This document shows positions 32,810-41,157 of a stretch of 64,000 nt of DNA, piece by piece; the first letter of the stretch is position 1; each line of letters starts with the position of its first letter. The stretch lies in assembly GCF_000026545.1 (NCBI RefSeq), contig NC_011601.1; one strand, 5' to 3'. Under the pieces are notes generated by a model. It made no database searches, was not told the origin of the DNA, and saw nothing but the letters and a program-made list of their open reading frames with translations. The translations under genes were made by a program, and so were the position numbers. The stretch comes from Escherichia coli O127:H6 str. E2348/69 (GTDB taxonomy: Bacteria > Pseudomonadota > Gammaproteobacteria > Enterobacterales > Enterobacteriaceae).

Positions 32810-33967
32810 ATGAACAGAAGAAGAAAACTGTTAATACCGTTGTTATTCTGCGGCGCGATGCTCACCGCCTGCGATGACAAATCGGCGGAAAACGCCGCCG
32901 CCATGACGCCTGAGGTCGGTGTCGTCACACTCTCCCCCGGTTCGGTCAATGTGTTGAGCGAATTGCCCGGTAGAACCGTTCCTTATGAAGTTGCCGAGAT
33001 ACGTCCCCAGGTGGGCGGTATTATCATTAAACGCAACTTTATCGAAGGCGATAAAGTGAACCAGGGCGATTCGCTGTATCAGATTGATCCTGCGCCTTTA
33101 CAGGCAGAGCTGAACTCCGCCAAAGGCTCGCTGGCGAAAGCGCTCTCTACCGCCAGCAATGCCCGCATCACCTTTAACCGCCAGGCATCGTTGCTGAAGA
33201 CCAACTATGTTAGCCGTCAGGATTACGACACCGCGCGCACCCAGTTGAATGAAGCAGAAGCCAATGTCACCGTCGCCAAAGCGGCTGTTGAACAGGCGAC
33301 GATCAATCTGCAATACGCGAATGTCACCTCGCCGATTACGGGCGTCAGCGGGAAATCGTCGGTGACCGTCGGCGCACTCGTTACCGCTAATCAGGCAGAT
33401 TCGCTGGTTACCGTACAACGTCTGGACCCGATTTATGTCGATCTCACGCAGTCGGTGCAGGATTTCTTGCGCATGAAAGAAGAGGTCGCCAGTGGGCAAA
33501 TCAAACAGGTTCAGGGCAGTACGCCAGTACAGCTCAATCTGGAAAATGGTAAACGTTACGGCCAGACCGGCACGCTGAAATTCTCCGACCCGACGGTGGA
33601 TGAAACCACGGGCTCCGTGACGTTACGGGCGATTTTCCCCAACCCAAATGGTGACTTGCTGCCTGGCATGTATGTCACGGCATTAGTGGATGAAGGTAGC
33701 CGCCAGAATGTATTACTGGTGCCGCAGGAAGGCGTCACCCACAACGCCCAGGGTAAAGCAACGGCACTCATTCTGGATAAAGACGATGTCGTGCAGCTAC
33801 GCGAAATCGAAGCCAGCAAAGCCATCGGCGACCAGTGGGTTGTCACCTCTGGCTTGCAGGCTGGCGATCGGGTGATCGTTTCCGGTTTGCAACGCATTCG
33901 TCCGGGTATCAAAGCACGTGCAATTTCCTCCAGCCAGGAAAACGCCAGCACCGAATCGAAACAATAA
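32810..33967 (+). CDS. mdtE: Multidrug efflux membrane fusion protein MdtE
   Basis: 385-aa ORF with lipoprotein signal (LTAC) and HlyD/AcrA-family domains. Confidence 0.95.
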   Translation: MNRRRKLLIPLLFCGAMLTACDDKSAENAAAMTPEVGVVTLSPGSVNVLSELPGRTVPYEVAEIRPQVGGIIIKRNFIEGDKVNQGDSLYQIDPAPLQAELNSAKGSLAKALSTASNARITFNRQASLLKTNYVSRQDYDTARTQLNEAEANVTVAKAAVEQATINLQYANVTSPITGVSGKSSVTVGALVTANQADSLVTVQRLDPIYVDLTQSVQDFLRMKEEVASGQIKQVQGSTPVQLNLENGKRYGQTGTLKFSDPTVDETTGSVTLRAIFPNPNGDLLPGMYVTALVDEGSRQNVLLVPQEGVTHNAQGKATALILDKDDVVQLREIEASKAIGDQWVVTSGLQAGDRVIVSGLQRIRPGIKARAISSSQENASTESKQ

Positions 33968-33991
33968 CGTTGCAGGCTTAAGGGGACTTTC

Positions 33992-36900
33992 ATGGCTAAC
34001 TATTTTATTGATCGCCCGGTTTTTGCCTGGGTACTTGCCATTATTATGATGCTTGCAGGCGGTCTGGCGATCATGAACTTACCGGTTGCGCAGTATCCGC
34101 AGATTGCGCCACCGACCATTACCATCAGCGCAACCTATCCGGGTGCCGATGCGCAAACGGTAGAAGACTCGGTCACTCAGGTGATTGAGCAAAATATGAA
34201 TGGGCTTGATGGCCTGATGTACATGTCTTCAACCAGCGATGCGGCAGGTAATGCCTCCATCACTCTGACCTTCGAGACGGGGACATCGCCTGATATCGCA
34301 CAGGTTCAGGTGCAAAATAAACTGCAACTCGCTATGCCTTCATTACCTGAAGCGGTGCAGCAGCAGGGGATTAGCGTCGATAAGTCGAGCAGTAATATCC
34401 TGATGGTAGCGGCATTTATTTCTGATAACGGCAGCCTCAACCAGTACGATATCGCGGACTATGTAGCGTCTAATATCAAAGACCCGCTAAGCCGTACCGC
34501 GGGCGTTGGTAGCGTACAGCTCTTTGGTTCCGAGTACGCCATGCGTATCTGGCTGGACCCGCAAAAACTCAATAAATATAACCTGGTACCTTCCGATGTT
34601 ATTTCCCAGATTAAGGTGCAAAACAACCAGATTTCCGGTGGTCAACTGGGTGGCATGCCACAGGCGGCAGACCAGCAACTGAACGCCTCGATCATTGTGC
34701 AGACGCGTCTGCAAACGCCGGAAGAATTTGGCAAAATCCTGTTGAAAGTTCAGCAAGATGGTTCGCAAGTGCTGCTGCGTGATGTCGCCCGCGTCGAACT
34801 TGGGGCGGAAGATTATTCCACCGTGGCGCGCTATAACGGCAAACCTGCTGCCGGGATCGCCATCAAACTGGCTACCGGAGCAAACGCCCTGGATACCTCG
34901 CGAGCGGTGAAAGAGGAGCTGAACCGTTTATCGGCTTATTTCCCTGCAAGCCTGAAGACGGTTTATCCTTACGACACCACACCGTTTATCAAAATTTCTA
35001 TTCAGGAAGTTTTCAAAACGCTGGTTGAGGCTATCATCCTCGTCTTCCTGGTCATGTATCTGTTTTTGCAGAATTTCCGCGCCACAATCATCCCGACGAT
35101 TGCCGTACCGGTGGTTATTCTCGGGACGTTTGCGATCTTGTCGGCGGTCGGTTTCACCATCAACACGTTAACTATGTTCGGGATGGTGCTGGCGATAGGG
35201 TTACTGGTGGATGACGCCATCGTGGTGGTGGAGAACGTCGAGCGTGTCATTGCGGAAGATAAGCTACCGCCGAAGGAAGCGACGCATAAATCGATGGGGC
35301 AGATCCAACGTGCGCTGGTCGGGATTGCCGTTGTTCTTTCCGCAGTGTTTATGCCGATGGCCTTTATGAGCGGTGCGACCGGGGAGATCTACCGCCAGTT
35401 CTCCATCACGCTGATCTCCTCCATGCTGCTTTCAGTATTTGTAGCAATGAGCCTGACCCCTGCCCTGTGCGCCACCATTCTGAAAGCCGCGCCGGAGGGC
35501 GGTCACAAACCTAACGCCCTGTTCGCACGCTTCAACACGCTGTTTGAAAAATCAACTCAGCACTATACCGACAGCACCCGCTCGCTGTTGCGTTGTACCG
35601 GTCGCTACATGGTGGTCTACCTGCTGATTTGCGCCGGGATGGCGGTGCTGTTCCTGCGTACGCCGACCTCTTTCTTACCAGAAGAGGATCAGGGGGTATT
35701 TATGACCACCGCGCAGTTACCTTCCGGTGCAACCATGGTTAACACCACGAAAGTGCTACAACAGGTGACGGATTATTATCTGACAAAAGAGAAAAATAAT
35801 GTTCAGTCGGTGTTTACCGTTGGTGGCTTTGGCTTCAGTGGTCAGGGGCAAAACAACGGTCTGGCGTTTATCAGCCTCAAGCCGTGGTCTGAACGTGTCG
35901 GCGAGGAAAACTCGGTTACCGCGATTATTCAGCGGGCAATGATTGCGCTAAGCAGTATCAATAAAGCCGTCGTCTTCCCGTTCAACTTACCCGCGGTGGC
36001 TGAACTGGGTACCGCGTCAGGTTTTGATATGGAACTGCTGGACAACGGCAATCTGGGGCACGAAAAGCTGACCCAGGCGCGAAACGAGCTGTTATCACTG
36101 GCAGCGCAATCACCGAATCAGGTCATCGGGGTACGCCCGAACGGCCTGGAAGATACGCCGATGTTCAAAGTGAACGTCAACGCTGCGAAAGCCGAGGCTA
36201 TGGGTGTGGCGCTGTCTGATATCAACCAGACAATTTCCACCGCCTTCGGCAGCAGCTACGTGAACGACTTCCTCAACCAGGGGCGGGTGAAAAAAGTGTA
36301 TGTCCAGGCAGGCACGCCGTTCCGTATGTTGCCGGATAACATCAACCAATGGTATGTACGCAACGCCTCTGGCACGATGGCACCGCTTTCTGCCTATTCG
36401 TCTACCGAATGGACCTATGGTTCACCGCGACTGGAACGCTACAACGGCATCCCGTCAATGGAGATTTTAGGTGAAGCGGCTGCCGGGAAAAGTACCGGTG
36501 ACGCCATGAAATTTATGGCAGACCTGGTCGCAAAACTTCCGGCAGGCGTCGGCTACTCATGGACCGGGCTGTCGTATCAGGAAGCGTTATCCTCAAACCA
36601 GGCTCCCGCGCTATATGCCATTTCACTGGTCGTGGTGTTCCTCGCCCTCGCCGCACTTTATGAAAGCTGGTCAATTCCGTTCTCGGTGATGTTGGTTGTT
36701 CCGTTAGGCGTCGTTGGCGCATTACTGGCCACCGATCTGCGCGGCTTAAGTAATGACGTTTACTTCCAGGTTGGTTTGCTGACCACCATCGGGCTTTCCG
36801 CCAAGAACGCCATCCTGATTGTCGAATTTGCCGTTGAGATGATGCAGAAAGAAGGGAAAACGCCGGTAGAGGCAATCATCGAAGCAGCGCGTATGCGTTT

Positions 36901-37105
36901 ACGCCCAATCCTGATGACTTCTCTGGCCTTTATTCTCGGCGTGCTGCCGCTGGTTATCAGTCATGGTGCCGGCTCTGGCGCGCAAAACGCGGTAGGTACC
37001 GGCGTAATGGGCGGGATGTTTGCCGCAACAGTGCTGGCAATTTACTTCGTTCCGGTCTTTTTCGTTGTAGTGGAACATCTCTTTGCCCGCTTTAAAAAAG
37101 CGTAA
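33992..37105 (+). CDS. mdtF: RND multidrug efflux transporter MdtF
   Basis: 1037-aa AcrB-family 12-TM ORF. Confidence 0.96.
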
Positions 37106-37467
37106 CGTGTAAATGAGAGTAAGGTTGAACGTGAAGGTTCAGCCTTACTCTTTCCTGCTAACCATTCACCACTCAACAACCAGCTAACCGTCAGGAATAC
37201 CAGGCTTAGTACACAGCACTGAAAGTAGAAACCACTCCAGCCATTCGTCATCAATTTGAACAGCACAATACTGACCCACATTCCCGTAATCGTATGAATT
37301 GTTAGCTTAATAATCCCAAACATGCCGAGTCTTTTCCTCCTGAAAATACCTATACCGCCTGGCAAACTGCGAAAGAGAACTAGCCGGTAGCTCGTCAGAA
37401 ATCATCAGGAAAGAGTTTCACATGAAGCAGACGTGAGATCCTGACCAATATTCAAATGCGAAATATG

Positions 37468-38196
37468 TCAGGAAAAGGTACCCGGCGAATGTTGCGAAAA
37501 CTGATGTGGCGTTACACCATAATATTGTCTAAATGTATTTATAAAGTATGACGTACTGCTATAGCCACATTTTTCCGCAATAGTATGCAGAGGTATTTGA
37601 CGTAACTCGAGTAATCGTCTGGCCATCGACATCCTGGAGGCGAGTAATATTTTACTGAAACAGGTATTTTCATCCTGCAACTTTTTTTTGATGAGACTCT
37701 CGCTGGTGTACATTCTTTCTGCGATATCGCGTAGATACCAACGTTTAGCGATATCAAAGCTAATAAGGCGTTCAACTTTTCCTGAAACAGTACTGATACT
37801 ATTGAAAAGTAAGGGGATCAGTTCTTTCTTATGAGAAAACATTGATAAACAGGAAAGGTAGAGCATTTTGCTCAGTATCGGCGAATTGACCCGGGGGTCA
37901 TTGAAACTATCAAAAATCGCCGTCACCAGCTGAATGGGGGGTGACTGGTTAATTAACAAACGGTCTTTGCTATGCAATCCTAAATTGCGTGGCAACTGAC
38001 GAATATTTTGTAAGTAATGGCAAACTGTCAGCTCTTCGATATCCAGCCGTCGCGTATCCAGTGAACAAAACGCAAAATCGTCTGCCAAATTTTTATCCAG
38101 CAGCAGGATACTCTCGTTATGCAACGATATTTTTTGCTGTTCATGATGAATATCGAATGAACGACGAACGAGGATCACCGAGCAGACATGAGTCAT
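37468..38196 (-). CDS. gadW: AraC-family regulator GadW
   Basis: 242-aa ORF with a C-terminal AraC-type HTH. Confidence 0.92.
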   Translation of the reverse strand: MTHVCSVILVRRSFDIHHEQQKISLHNESILLLDKNLADDFAFCSLDTRRLDIEELTVCHYLQNIRQLPRNLGLHSKDRLLINQSPPIQLVTAIFDSFNDPRVNSPILSKMLYLSCLSMFSHKKELIPLLFNSISTVSGKVERLISFDIAKRWYLRDIAERMYTSESLIKKKLQDENTCFSKILLASRMSMARRLLELRQIPLHTIAEKCGYSSTSYFINTFRQYYGVTPHQFSQHSPGTFS

Positions 38197-38442
38197 GACT
38201 ATTCCTTATATTTCATTACTGCGATTATTTCAATGTCAGTATACTAATGAAATGACGCCAGACTGTTTCTGTGTGCAAAAACTGCCATATTTGGTAGGAC
38301 CAAATTTTATCCACAAAGTAGTTTTGCATAACAGTTAATTGATAATAAGTAAATGCAACACGATTATATTTTCACACAGCGTATAGCTTATGTTTATAAA
38401 AAAATGGCTGATCTTATTTCCAGTAAAAGTTATATTTAACTT

Positions 38443-38548
38443 ACTGAGAGCACAAAGTTTCCCGTGCCAACAGGGAGTGTTATAACGGTTTATTAGTCTG
38501 GAGACGGCAGACTATCCTCTTCCCGGTCCCCTATGCCGGGTTTTTTTT
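38443..38548 (+). ncRNA. gadY: GadY small RNA (overlaps the gadX 3' UTR on the opposite strand)
   Basis: actgagagcacaaagtttcccgtgccaacagggag...ccggtcccctatgccgggtttttttt matches my recollection of GadY and ends in an intrinsic terminator. Confidence 0.75.
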
Positions 38549-38564
38549 ATGTCTGAGTAAAACT

Positions 38565-39389
38565 CTATAATCTTATTCCTTCCGCAGAACGGTCAGTGCC
38601 GTAAAAATTCCCTTGCGCAGCCATACTTGCCGCCGGGCCACAGTTCGGTAATTCCTGCGCCGATCGCTCCTGATACTCTGTGGGCGTCATCCCATAATAA
38701 TTTCGAAAAACGTAAATGAAATACGACACGCTGTGATATCCACAGGATACTGCAACTCGCTTAATTGAAACCCCATATATAACAATAAGTTGTAAAGCAC
38801 GCTGCATCCTACACTCAGTAAGCAACTGTGAATATGACGTACCTTCTTCGCGCAATTTTTTCTTTAACAGGCTTGGACTCATCAACAATTCGCTAGCGAT
38901 TCGGGCTAATGTCCACTCATGGGCGATATTATTATTGATGACCGTACAAACTCGTGTTCGCATATTCGGTTGCAACACGTTCAGAAGTAACGGTATAAAT
39001 TGCGTATCCTCAAGAAAAACAGATAACAACGCAAAGATTAATGCCCTTTTACGTAGCATTTCTGCATAGCGAAGATTCTTATTCTGCGATAGTTGCGCAA
39101 CTTCCTGAAAAACAGGAATATCTCTGGTACAGTGATGAACGAGTAATGAAGGAACTTTTTTATGTGCATGAAGTTTTAATGCCTCCTCCTTGAGCATCGG
39201 GAGAAATAATGAAAGCGTGTCTCTTGAAACTAATACGAAATTCTCAACACACTTATCCACTTGAATTTGGCTTGCATCCGCAAAAACCAGATCACCGCCA
39301 TTAAAATAGCGATATTCACCATTAACCATGGTGAGAATATATTTATGTCTTGCGTACGCAATTAGACAATTACCATGTAGTGGTTGCAT
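38565..39389 (-). CDS. gadX: AraC-family regulator GadX
   Basis: 274-aa ORF MQPLHGNCLIAYARHKYILTMVNGEYRYFNGGDLVFADASQ... Confidence 0.93.
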   Translation of the reverse strand: MQPLHGNCLIAYARHKYILTMVNGEYRYFNGGDLVFADASQIQVDKCVENFVLVSRDTLSLFLPMLKEEALKLHAHKKVPSLLVHHCTRDIPVFQEVAQLSQNKNLRYAEMLRKRALIFALLSVFLEDTQFIPLLLNVLQPNMRTRVCTVINNNIAHEWTLARIASELLMSPSLLKKKLREEGTSYSQLLTECRMQRALQLIVIYGVSIKRVAVSCGYHSVSYFIYVFRNYYGMTPTEYQERSAQELPNCGPAASMAAQGNFYGTDRSAEGIRL

Positions 39390-39756
39390 AGTTGACTTAA
39401 TATTACATAAACATATTACTGTTTATTAATGTAGCACGCCGCCCTCTTAAGTCAAATTGATTGATAAATAAATTTAAACGAAGCGGGAAAACAGGATGAT
39501 AATGAGCGATGATACTCGGGCTGGATGACTGGATTTATTATATAAAAAGGGGACTTAAGAACGAAGAGGAATTAATAGTAAGCAAATAATTCATCATCGT
39601 AATATTAAGCAGTATCGCTATGCTCCATAACATTCATATAACATATATCTTATCAACACGATGAATAGACAGGTAATATATTATTGCAATTAATAAGTAG
39701 CCGAATACCCACCTGTTTTTAAAGGTTGGGCATTCGGTTTTTACAACGTGATGTTA

Positions 39757-41157
39757 TCAGGTGTGTTTAAAGCTGTTCTGCTGGGCAATACCCTGCAGTT
39801 TCGGGTGGTCGCTGAGATATTTCAGGGAGGCTTTGTAGTCTTCCAGCAACAGTTCAGCAAAGTCCATTTCGAAGCCGCGACGACACATAATGCGCATCAC
39901 CACGATGTCGGTGGCTTCACCGCCGAGAGTGAAAGCCGGAACCTGCCAGCCGCGCAGACGCAGACGTTCAGAGAGGTCGTACAGGGTGTATCCCGGATCT
40001 TCACCATCTTTCAGTTTGAAGCAAACCGCCGGGATGCCTTCGTCCGGGCGACCGGTACAGATGAACTCATACGGCCCCAGTTTGGCGATTTCATCCGCCA
40101 GATAAGCGGCAACCTGGTAGGAAGCGTTCTGTACTTTGGTATAGCCTTCACGACCGAGGCGCAGGAATTCATAGTACTGTGCAATCACCTGACCCGCCGG
40201 GCGGGAGAAGTTGATGGCGAAAGTACCAATCTGACCGCCGAGGTAGTCAACGTTGAACACCAGTTCCTGCGGCAGCGCTTCTTCATCACGCCAGATAACC
40301 CAGCCGCAGCCCAGCGGAGCCAGACCGAATTTATGGCCTGAAGCACTGATCGATTTCACACGCGGCAGGCGGAAGTCCCAGACGATATCCGGGGCGACGA
40401 ACGGTGCCAGGAAGCCACCGCTGGCGGCGTCGATGTGCATGTCGATGTCGATACCGGTGTCGGCCTGGAATTTATCCAGCGCATCGTGCAGCGGCTGCGG
40501 GAACTCATAGTTACCGGTGTAGGTCACGCCGAAAGTCGGCACCACGCCGATGGTATTTTCGTCGCAGGCTTCAATCATGCGTTTCGGGTCCATAAACAAC
40601 TGACCGGGGCGCATAGGGATCTCACGCAACTCCACATCCCAGTAGCGGGCGAATTTATGCCAGCAGATTTGTACCGGACCGCACACCAGGTTTGGTTTAT
40701 CCGTTGGTTTGCCTGCGGCTTCCATACGCTTGCGCCAACGCCATTTCATCGCCATCCCGCCGAGCATACAGGCCTCGGAAGAACCAATGGTGTTGGTGCC
40801 AACGGCCTGACCATTTTTCGGTGCAGGCGCATGCCACAGATCGGCAACCATGTTTACGCAACGCAGGTCGATTGCAGCGGATTGCGGATATTCTTCTTTG
40901 TCGATCCAGTTTTTATTGATCGACAAATCCATCAATTTATGGACGTTTTCGTCGTCCCAGGTCTGGCAGAAAGTGGCCAGGTTCTGACGAGCGTTGCCAT
41001 CAAGATATAATTCATCATTGATAATCTGAAATGCAACATCATCGCGCATTTCGTGCAGCGGAAATCGTTTTGACTCCGCGATAGTAGAAATGGCCTTTGC
41101 GCCAAAACGTGAATCGAGTAGTTCTGAGCGGAAATCCGTTAACAGCTTCTGGTCCAT
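39757..41157 (-). CDS. gadA: Glutamate decarboxylase alpha
   Basis: 466 aa from [21 protein letters not shown] with the PLP-lysine region [19 protein letters not shown]; the ORF track starts 21 codons upstream. Assigned gadA rather than gadB from position next to gadX. Confidence 0.93.

What the first reader, a model, noticed from the sequence alone, without database searches (positions are those of the whole stretch)
37042..37323. Candidate 93-codon small membrane ORF in the mdtF–gadW spacer, antisense to the mdtF 3' end
On the minus strand an ATG (complement of 37321..37323) preceded by aggagg (12-nt spacer) opens a frame encoding MFGIIKLTIHTITGMWVSIVLFKLMTNGWSGFYFQCCVLSLVFLTVSWLL... with two hydrophobic segments. 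Its last 21 codons overlap the mdtF C-terminus, and it reads through the hairpin that likely terminates mdtF, so it may be spurious. Small membrane proteins are common regulators of efflux pumps and acid stress and are often unannotated, which is why it merits a look.
Basis: seen in the sequence. Interest (0 to 1): 0.3.

Follow-up and report, generated by a model that had tools for sequence, protein, structure and literature searches.

The report
Acid-induced small membrane protein gene (sORF15)
The 93-codon reading frame between mdtF and gadW is a real gene for a small two-helix membrane protein, kept by selection across the genus Escherichia, but it was already published in 2023 as "sORF15" and its function is still unknown.

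Summary

It is not new. It is exactly sORF15 of Schumacher et al. 2023 (mSystems, PMC10746267), at NC_000913.3:3663464-3663745(-). That study found it in the gadW 3' UTR. Ribosome footprints rose 18-fold at pH 4.4, and a FLAG-tagged product expressed from a plasmid was seen on a Western blot.

What I add is evolutionary evidence.
- **Intact in every genome lineage checked.** The frame is 93 codons with no indels in six Escherichia species-level lineages, including E. albertii.
- **Purifying selection.** In the first 57 codons dN/dS is 0.05-0.12, against about 0.8-1.3 in the other two frames. The neighbouring gene gadW gives 0.07-0.13.
- **Near-universal in E. coli.** The core is present in 5,414 of 5,426 complete genomes and is annotated in none of the records listed.
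- **A short E. fergusonii version.** It has 54 codons, lies 19 nt after the gadW orthologue and lacks the tail.

The tail's conservation is explained by mdtF and its hairpin, so the tail is probably dispensable.

Verdict: a real gene, already known, function unknown. The most likely role is a membrane accessory or regulator of the acid-resistance island.

The parts
37042..37323 (-). sORF15 coding sequence (93 codons plus TAA). It is identical to the published K-12 sORF15 except R65 (CGT) in place of C65 (TGT).
   Evidence: coordinates and sequence matched to Table S7 of PMC10746267.
37336..37341 (-). Shine-Dalgarno AGGAGG, 12 nt before the ATG. The block TATTTTCAGGAGGAA is invariant in all 8 aligned Escherichia genome sequences (six species-level lineages plus K-12 and this window); only E. 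fergusonii differs.
   Evidence: The published FLAG construct kept only the 15 nt upstream of the ATG (AGGAAAAGACTCGGC), which holds just the last three bases of this hexamer.
37153..37320 (-). Conserved core, codons 2-57. It holds helix 1 (about residues 2-26), an invariant short turn TNGWSG, and helix 2 (about residues 31-55) with an invariant Cys36-Cys37 pair.
   Evidence: dN/dS 0.05-0.12. Fisher p = 1e-11 for the E. albertii pair. No indels. AF2 helices 2-26 and 31-55. Residues invariant including E. fergusonii.
37045..37152 (-). C-terminal basic tail, codons 58-93. It is encoded by the mdtF hairpin and by the antisense of the last mdtF codons, and shows no independent evidence of selection.
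   Evidence: Variable sites 3/4/7 in codons 58-72. In codons 73-93 all 5 variable sites fall at third positions, which coincide with mdtF third positions. Tail-altering variants occur in databases and metagenomes. The tail is absent in E. fergusonii.
37115..37152 (.). Inverted repeat (hairpin). Its stem is 16/16 paired on the + strand (two G.U pairs) and 14/16 on the - strand. It is most likely the 3'-end hairpin of the mdtF transcript, which the sORF15 frame reads through.
   Evidence: -27.3 kcal/mol, z -5.9 on the + strand; -23.0, z -3.6 on the - strand. One search shows the pairing kept across species, with one compensatory double change in L006.
37042..37105 (+). 3' end of mdtF (last 20 codons plus stop and one extra base), overlapped antisense by sORF15. 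Third codon positions of the two frames coincide.
   Evidence: mdtF tail dN/dS 0-0.05.
37468..38196 (-). gadW, the upstream gene of the same transcription unit. sORF15 starts 145 nt after its stop.
   Evidence: Co-induction at pH 4.4: GadW RPF log2FC 3.03, sORF15 4.21. In E. fergusonii the gap is 19 nt.
37395..37421 (-). Remnant of the published candidate sORF14 (13 aa in K-12). In this window TGC>TGA cuts it to 8 codons, and the region carries indels between species. It is probably not a conserved gene.

Best explanation
This is a genuine protein-coding gene, the published sORF15. It encodes a small inner-membrane protein with two transmembrane helices joined by a very short periplasmic turn (invariant GWSGF, followed by a Cys-Cys pair). 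Both termini are predicted to be cytoplasmic.

It is the distal cistron of the gadW (gadXW) transcript and is translated from its own Shine-Dalgarno sequence. It is switched on transcriptionally together with gadW under severe acid stress (pH 4.4).

The functional module is the first ~55 residues. The basic C-terminal tail of the 93-aa form arises because the frame stays open through the mdtF hairpin and 21 codons of antisense mdtF. That tail is probably dispensable.

Shown: the ORF, its SD, purifying selection, conserved synteny, acid-induced ribosome occupancy, and a tagged product (the last two from the literature).

Inferred: membrane topology, co-transcription with gadW, and function. My best guess for function is that it binds and modulates a membrane component of the acid-stress response, such as MdtEF, GadC or a sensor kinase, in the way other small membrane proteins act. 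I put about 0.3 on any one named target class.
For: - **Identity with sORF15.** K-12 coordinates 3663464-3663745(-) and the sequence match Table S7.
- **Published expression data.** RPF log2FC +4.21 (padj 1.1e-38), RNA +4.03, TE unchanged at pH 4.4. DeepTMHMM predicts two TM helices. A C-terminal 3xFLAG product was seen on a Western blot.
- **Unbiased comparative sample.** Loci anchored on GadW have the frame intact at exactly 93 codons with no indels in 6 Escherichia species-level lineages.
- **Coding signature.** Variable sites by codon position are 17/10/34. NG86 dN/dS is 0.05 (E. albertii, dS 1.09), 0.09 and 0.11. Pooled pN/pS is 0.18, against 0.81 and 1.30 in the other frames. Fisher p is 1e-11 to 8e-8. 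gadW gives 0.07-0.13.
- **E. coli population.** In 40 sequences the core has 11 synonymous changes, 3 singleton missense changes and 1 singleton nonsense change. Nucleotide diversity is 0.0096 in the core and 0.038 in the upstream spacer.
- **Complete genomes.** The core is in 5,414 of 5,426 genomes. The three most divergent full-length matches listed (4 and 3 nt differences) encode the identical protein.
- **E. fergusonii orthologue.** CAQ90533.1 is 54 aa, lies 19 nt after the gadW orthologue and converges on mdtF. Nucleotide identity to E. coli is only 56%, differences by codon position are 21/9/34, and the GWSGF.F.CC motif is kept.
- **Topology.** 11 K/R in the tail, none in the turn. AF2 gives three helices.
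Against: - No function, phenotype or interaction partner has been shown anywhere.
- The Western blot came from an arabinose-induced plasmid, not from the chromosome.
- The ORF is not in the held text of the Stringer et al. Ribo-RET supplement. Those data were taken at neutral pH.
- It is not annotated in MG1655 RefSeq or in any RefSeq genome listed.
- The SD-ATG spacing of 12 nt is long.
- The E. fergusonii copy lacks a recognisable SD and starts at GTG.
- There is no Pfam, NCBIfam or PDB relative to support any functional inference.
- The AF2 model has low confidence (pLDDT 61.8).
- No promoter or terminator was identified, so the transcript boundaries are not defined.
Confidence: 0.8

Rival explanations
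1. The ORF is translated, but the peptide itself has no function. What matters is the act of translation. Ribosomes running through the gadW 3' region, the hairpin and the antisense mdtF end would stabilise the gadW transcript or interfere with the convergent mdtF mRNA 3' end.
For: The frame crosses the mdtF hairpin and overlaps mdtF by 64 nt. Both convergent units belong to the same acid-fitness island. No canonical terminator was found for the minus-strand transcript.
Against: dN/dS of 0.05-0.12 in codons 1-57, with conservative replacements and invariant motifs, shows that the amino-acid sequence is under selection. The E. fergusonii gene stops before the hairpin and does not overlap mdtF, so read-through is not a conserved feature.
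Confidence: 0.07
2. It is a small hydrophobic membrane toxin resembling a type I toxin. When expressed under acid stress it depolarises or perturbs the membrane.
For: The protein is small, strongly hydrophobic and two-helix, with a basic tail. Its 3' end overlaps an antisense transcript, mdtF.
Against: No Hok, Ldr, TisB, Ibs or other toxin family was matched. No known sRNA lies in the spacer; Rfam finds only GadY, farther upstream. The gene is co-transcribed with a regulator rather than having its own tightly repressed promoter. The published arabinose induction yielded detectable protein, and the passages I read report no toxicity. It is present as a single chromosomal copy at this locus, whereas type I toxin genes are often duplicated.
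Confidence: 0.05
3. It is a spurious ORF. The sequence is conserved as a non-coding RNA or DNA element, such as a gadW 3' UTR structure or a protein-binding site, and the footprints are noise.
For: The ORF is not annotated by PGAP or in the MG1655 record. The tail region is indeed constrained by other features.
Against: The three-nucleotide periodicity of substitutions is specific to this frame. There are no indels over 282 nt while the adjacent spacer has several. The upstream region shows no significant RNA structure, and no Rfam family matches in the spacer or the ORF. The literature reports even ribosome coverage and a tagged product.
Confidence: 0.03

Closest known systems
sORF15 of Schumacher et al. 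2023 (mSystems 8:e01037-23, PMC10746267); database entries UniProt A0A0D6GAG9_ECOLX and A0A0J2E9I0_ECOLX, GenBank AQV29643.1 and others ('hypothetical protein')
   Same: It is the same gene: same position in the gadW 3' region, same start, stop and SD, and 92 of 93 residues identical to the K-12 protein.
   Different: The only difference is the R65/C65 polymorphism in the hairpin-loop codon. The paper did not test selection. It also reported >80%-identical 'homologues' in Vibrio, Klebsiella, Salmonella and Enterococcus. I found the family only in Escherichia, so those hits are most simply E. coli DNA in misassigned assemblies (inference).
E. fergusonii CAQ90533.1 / B7LQH3 ('hypothetical protein; putative exported protein', 54 aa)
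   Same: It is the orthologous position: directly after the gadW orthologue and convergent with mdtF. It has the same two-helix core with the GIIKL...GWSGF.F.CC motifs.
   Different: It is only 42-49% identical. It has a GTG start and no clear SD, lies 19 nt after gadW, and ends right after helix 2, before its own terminator hairpin. It has no basic tail and no overlap with mdtF.
AcrZ, the 49-aa small membrane protein that binds the RND pump AcrB (own knowledge). AcrZ also pulled down MdtF in PMC11539335.
   Same: It is a small hydrophobic inner-membrane protein encoded in a stress regulon. sORF15 lies next to an AcrB paralogue, mdtF, and the original authors suggested an MdtF association.
   Different: AcrZ has one TM helix and sORF15 has two. 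There is no sequence similarity and no Pfam hit. sORF15 is co-transcribed with the regulator gadW, convergent to the pump rather than in its operon. No binding data exist. The 2025 MdtF cryo-EM paper mentions no small partner.
SafA (B1500), the small membrane protein co-transcribed with the AraC-type acid-resistance regulator YdeO; it activates PhoQ (own knowledge: Eguchi et al. 2007)
   Same: The arrangement is the same: a small membrane protein shares a transcript with an AraC-family regulator of the acid-resistance network. This suggests a 'connector' role.
   Different: SafA is single-pass, with a periplasmic C-terminal domain that contacts the sensor. sORF15 is predicted to expose only about 4-6 residues to the periplasm. 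There is no sequence similarity. The gene order is reversed: safA precedes ydeO.

Membership tests
Published sORF15 (Schumacher et al. 2023) | Same genomic position and sequence: NC_000913.3:3663464-3663745 minus strand, between mdtF and gadW | tested here: met
   The window ORF aligns to K-12 L001 965..1246, which is 3663464..3663745, with 3 nt differences in 282. The Table S7 sequence is identical to the K-12 ORF.
Published sORF15 (Schumacher et al. 2023) | Acid-induced ribosome occupancy and a detectable protein product | not testable with these tools
   Taken from the paper: RPF log2FC 4.21, padj 1.1e-38, and a FLAG Western blot. The data are for K-12, not for the E2348/69-type sequence in the window.
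Bona fide protein-coding gene | Purifying selection on the encoded amino-acid sequence, specific to this frame | tested here: met
   dN/dS is 0.05-0.12 in frame 0, against pooled 0.81 and 1.30 in frames +1 and +2. Variable sites by codon position are 17/10/34. Fisher p = 1e-11. gadW gives 0.07-0.13.
Bona fide protein-coding gene | Frame kept open in relatives | tested here: met
   43 of 48 sequences anchored outside the ORF show an intact 93-aa frame. A 44th (L037) missed the motif search only because of an extra A between the SD and the ATG; it has no indel inside the ORF. The other four are one nonsense singleton, two hairpin deletions and, counted separately, one chimeric contig. 5,412 of 5,426 complete genomes have the core in one piece. 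Two had less than 80% in one piece; the one examined carries an IS3 insertion.
Bona fide protein-coding gene | Conserved ribosome-binding site and start codon | tested here: met
   TATTTTCAGGAGGAA and the ATG are invariant in six species-level lineages. This is not met in E. fergusonii, which has a GTG start and no SD.
AcrZ-type small partner of RND pumps | Sequence membership (Pfam AcrZ family) and a single TM helix of about 49 aa | tested here: not met
   No Pfam or NCBIfam hit even at E <= 10. Two hydrophobic helices are predicted.
AcrZ-type small partner of RND pumps | Physical binding to the pump's transmembrane domain, altering its substrate profile | not testable with these tools
   No multimer prediction or experiment is available here. 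Literature searches found no report.
SafA/MgrB-type connector of two-component systems | Small membrane protein co-encoded with a stress regulator | tested here: met
   The gene lies downstream of gadW on the same strand in all seven Escherichia lineages. The gap is 145 nt in E. coli and 19 nt in E. fergusonii.
SafA/MgrB-type connector of two-component systems | Periplasmic domain that contacts a sensor kinase; sequence similarity to SafA or MgrB | tested here: not met
   The predicted periplasmic turn is only TNGWSG. No family hit was found.
Type I toxin (Hok, Ldr, TisB, Ibs, ShoB) | Family HMM match and a dedicated antisense sRNA | tested here: not met
   No Pfam or NCBIfam hit. The Rfam E-value scan of 33000-41000 finds only GadY at 38440-38553.

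The most novel reading that the evidence does not exclude
The conserved ~55-residue two-helix core may be a dedicated membrane partner that ties the GadW branch of the acid-resistance circuit to a membrane machine. That machine could be the adjacent anaerobic/acid RND pump MdtEF (an AcrZ analogue for MdtF), the GadC antiporter, or a sensor kinase (a SafA-like connector). The 93-aa form would then be a lineage-specific C-terminal extension, made by reading through a convergent gene's terminator hairpin and 21 codons of its antisense strand. That would be a clean natural example of overprinting that supplies a 'positive-inside' anchor.
Probability: 0.3. Interest if true: 0.55.

Novelty: already known. 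Interest (0 to 1): 0.3.

Why it matters
E. coli K-12 is the best-annotated bacterium, yet this gene is still missing from its reference annotation and from every RefSeq E. coli record listed. It sits in the middle of the intensively studied acid-fitness island. The evolutionary evidence here puts the published candidate on the same footing as its annotated neighbour gadW, so it deserves a gene name and a knockout study. If it modulates MdtEF, GadC or a sensor kinase, it would add a component to acid resistance or to stress-linked drug efflux. Knowing that the first ~55 residues are the selected part tells experimenters where tags and truncations are safe.

Tried and rejected
- **Family and structure searches.** Pfam and NCBIfam (E <= 10) and a PDB profile search gave nothing.
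- **Rfam.** An E-value scan of 8 kb gave only GadY and a chance mir-51 hit.
- **Promoters and terminators.** The scans found no minus-strand promoter for the ORF and no canonical terminator on either strand near it. Transcript ends therefore remain undefined.
- **Upstream spacer structure.** Its RNA fold is no better than shuffled sequence (z +0.9), so an RNA-element explanation was dropped.
- **Upstream TTG start.** The TTG at 37365 (107 aa) was rejected because it is not conserved in other species. In addition, the published construct carried only 15 nt upstream.
- **Independent detection.** The Stringer et al. 2021 supplement held here has no entry at 3663745. No supplement is held for the Mg-starvation study.
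- **Follow-up literature.** Searches for follow-up papers, and for Term-seq or 3' UTR data on gadW, found nothing relevant. One search failed on syntax.
- **Structure.** Single-sequence AF2 gave only a low-confidence three-helix model (pLDDT 61.8). I did not run a fold search on it because the matches would be meaningless.
- **Remote homologues.** The profile search of 1.84 billion representatives found no relative outside Escherichia.

Full report
**1. The observation**

The window is identical, over the 651-base stretch compared (36950-37600), to the E. coli E2348/69 chromosome (H1 100%). On the minus strand an ATG at 37323 opens a frame of 93 sense codons that ends with TAA at 37044..37042. 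AGGAGG lies at 37341..37336, 12 nt before the ATG. mdtF is 33992..37105(+), gadW is 37468..38196(-), GadY is 38440..38553(+) and gadX is 38565..39389(-). The last 21 sense codons and the stop overlap the mdtF 3' end. Codons 58-70 run through an inverted repeat at 37115..37152.

**2. It is already published**

A full-text search led to Schumacher et al. 2023, mSystems 8(6):e01037-23 (PMC10746267). Their Table S7 lists 'sORF15' at NC_000913.3:3663464-3663745(-), between mdtF and gadW. The protein sequence is [93 protein letters not shown]. My independent mapping of the window ORF onto MG1655 gives exactly these coordinates. The window protein differs only at R65 (C65 in K-12).

The paper reports the following.
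- The ORF was found by manual inspection of the long gadW 3' UTR.
- At pH 4.4 versus 7.6, ribosome footprints rise with log2FC 4.21 (padj 1.1e-38) and RNA with log2FC 4.03. Translation efficiency is unchanged.
- GadW footprints rise with log2FC 3.03.
- Coverage is even across the ORF.
- DeepTMHMM predicts two TM helices.
- A C-terminal 3xFLAG fusion, expressed from pBAD24 and retaining 15 nt of native upstream sequence, was seen on a Western blot.
- The authors speculate about an association with GadC or MdtF.

I found no follow-up paper. The gene is absent from the MG1655 and E2348/69 RefSeq annotation, and the 25 complete-genome hits listed show no feature under the match. GenBank and UniProt hold it only as 'hypothetical protein' (A0A0D6GAG9_ECOLX, A0A0J2E9I0_ECOLX, AQV29643.1 and others).

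**3. Is it under selection as a protein?**

To avoid sampling bias I fetched loci by the neighbouring GadW protein from one genome per GTDB species. Six Escherichia lineages were returned and no other genus. They were E. coli, Escherichia sp. MOD1-EC7003, a divergent 'E. coli E69', Escherichia sp. E1V33, E. whittamii and E. albertii.

In all six the frame is exactly 93 codons, with no indel from ATG to stop. The block TATTTTCAGGAGGAA is invariant. The 145 nt between the gadW stop and the SD, by contrast, carry several indels and are far more variable.

Results for codons 1-57:
- Variable sites fall 17/10/34 on codon positions 1/2/3 (p = 5.6e-4).
- Nei-Gojobori dN/dS against the window sequence is 0.05 for E. 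albertii (dS 1.09), 0.09 for E. whittamii and 0.11 for E1V33.
- Pooled pN/pS is 0.18 in the ORF frame, against 0.81 and 1.30 in the other two frames.
- Fisher tests on synonymous versus non-synonymous changes per site give p = 1e-11 to 8e-8.
- gadW itself gives 0.07-0.13, and its dN to E. albertii is three times higher (0.171 against 0.055).

The core of sORF15 is therefore constrained at least as strongly as its annotated neighbour.

**4. Population level**

A metagenome scan anchored in mdtF, outside the ORF, returned 45 loci.

Together with the genome sequences, 48 sequences covered the region:
- 43 encode an intact 93-aa protein.
- One has a singleton nonsense change at W48 on a low-coverage contig.
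- One has an in-frame 15-nt deletion in the hairpin.
- One has an 18-nt deletion across the mdtF stop.
- One has an extra A in the SD-ATG spacer and an otherwise intact ORF.
- A further locus was a chimeric contig and is not among the 48.

Among 40 E. coli sensu stricto sequences, the core has 11 synonymous polymorphisms, including all the common ones. It has only 3 singleton missense changes and 1 singleton nonsense change. Nucleotide diversity is 0.0096 in the core and 0.038 in the upstream spacer.

In 5,426 complete E. coli genomes the 171-nt core is found in 5,414. In 5,412 of these at least 80% of it lies in one piece, and all are at least 95% identical. The three most divergent full-length matches listed (4 and 3 nucleotide differences) encode the identical protein. 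One disrupted case is an IS3 insertion at codon 41.

**5. Range of the family and the short E. fergusonii form**

A profile of residues 1-72 was searched against 1.84 billion representative proteins. It found only Escherichia variants and fragments, plus one divergent relative, P0050. That relative is E. fergusonii ATCC 35469 CAQ90533.1 / B7LQH3, 54 aa.

It lies 19 nt downstream of the gadW orthologue (61% identity) and is convergent with mdtF-mdtE-gadE. Its sequence is MIVGIIKLALLGITAISVCMVLLNLILHGWSGFFFHCCLICLGLLASCLVVNKN. It keeps both helices, the GWSGF turn and the Cys-Cys pair. It stops just before its own terminator hairpin, so it has no tail and no overlap with mdtF.

Nucleotide identity to the E. 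coli core is only 56%, with differences 21/9/34 by codon position. This is again a coding signature.

The paper's reported >80%-identical homologues in Vibrio, Klebsiella, Salmonella and Enterococcus are not supported by these searches. They are most simply E. coli DNA in misassigned assemblies (inference). UniRef likewise lumps identical sequences under 'Enterobacteriaceae' and 'Gammaproteobacteria'.

**6. The tail and the hairpin**

In the mdtF overlap (codons 73-93) all 5 variable sites are third positions of sORF15. These coincide with third positions of mdtF, since both fall at window coordinates equal to 1 modulo 3. The strongly conserved mdtF (dN/dS 0-0.05) therefore explains the tail's invariance.

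Codons 58-72 show no codon bias (3/4/7). They lie in a hairpin that pairs 16/16 on the + strand (two G.U pairs; -27.3 kcal/mol, z -5.9) but 14/16 on the - strand (-23.0, z -3.6). This asymmetry holds across species, with one compensatory double change. The hairpin therefore looks like the mdtF transcript's 3' structure.

Databases hold E. coli variants with frameshifted or truncated tails of 54, 76, 141 and 148 aa, all with the first ~52-57 residues intact. Together with the E. fergusonii form, this indicates that the selected module is the two-helix core. Whether the tail was gained or lost cannot be decided from these data.

**7. How it most likely works**

Shown: the gene, its RBS, selection on the core, conserved linkage to gadW and mdtF, acid-induced ribosome occupancy and a tagged product (the last two from the literature).

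Inferred:
- **Co-transcription with gadW.** The two genes are on the same strand. No promoter or terminator was detected between them. They are induced in parallel, and the gap is only 19 nt in E. fergusonii.
- **N-in/C-in topology.** This follows from the positive-inside rule.
- **Function.** By analogy with AcrZ, SafA, MgrB and MgtS (own knowledge), a role as a membrane-embedded modulator of a component of the acid response.

The protein does not belong to any of those families. There is no HMM hit and it has two helices rather than one. AcrZ may already serve MdtF, and the MdtF cryo-EM study mentions no small partner.

The rival explanations are cis-acting translation, a toxin-like peptide and a spurious ORF. 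The frame-specific selection, the E. fergusonii architecture and the absence of toxin or sRNA features weigh against each of them.

**8. Verdict**

The new contributions are the evolutionary proof of coding, the delimitation of the functional core, the tail-less E. fergusonii orthologue and the restriction to Escherichia. Function remains open. Interest is modest.

Noticed in passing
window 37395..37421 (-): The published candidate sORF14 (13 aa, GTG start, K-12 3663802-3663843) is cut to 8 codons in this E2348/69-type sequence by TGC>TGA. The region also has indels between Escherichia species, so it does not behave like a conserved coding sequence.
   Followed up: partly
L058 (NZ_CP023386.1) and L059 (NZ_CP006834.2): RefSeq locus tags skip one number between gadW and mdtF (RS01335 to RS01345; RS01065 to RS01075). 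This suggests that an earlier PGAP run called a gene here and later withdrew it.
   Followed up: no
L056 2635..3863 (NZ_CM129860.1); also H30 (O121 strain 201805972): An IS3-family transposase is inserted inside sORF15 at codon 41 in strain SW070912. An O121 strain also shows the region split into two places. Natural knock-outs therefore exist that could be phenotyped.
   Followed up: partly
window 36800..38196 and loci L003-L008: Synonymous divergence to E. albertii differs sharply between adjacent genes: gadW dS 2.37, sORF15 core 1.09, mdtF 3' end 0.53. GadW is only 73% identical in E. albertii and 61% in E. fergusonii. This hints at different histories or recombination across the island.
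   Followed up: no
window 37115..37152: The mdtF-proximal hairpin pairs perfectly only on the + strand (G.U pairs there become C.A mismatches on the - strand). E1V33 shows one compensatory double change. Neither strand has a proper U-tract after it, and the simple terminator scan does not call it.
   Followed up: partly
L048 (metagenome contig ERZ809276 NODE-13369): AT-rich, unrelated sequence is joined to the ORF at codon ~27. This is most likely a chimeric assembly rather than a real rearrangement.
   Followed up: partly
PMC10746267 Fig. S9C: The published list of sORF15 'homologues' in Vibrio, Klebsiella, Salmonella and Enterococcus at >80% identity is not reproduced by species-representative or profile searches. 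It probably reflects mislabelled or contaminated assemblies.
   Followed up: partly
window 38939..38996 (-): A sub-threshold Rfam hit to the mir-51 microRNA precursor lies inside gadX (24.4 bits against a gathering score of 70, E = 0.19). It is a chance match.
   Followed up: no
and summaries: One copy of the mdtF-gadW spacer and core lies on a plasmid record among the complete E. coli genomes. I did not examine it.
   Followed up: no
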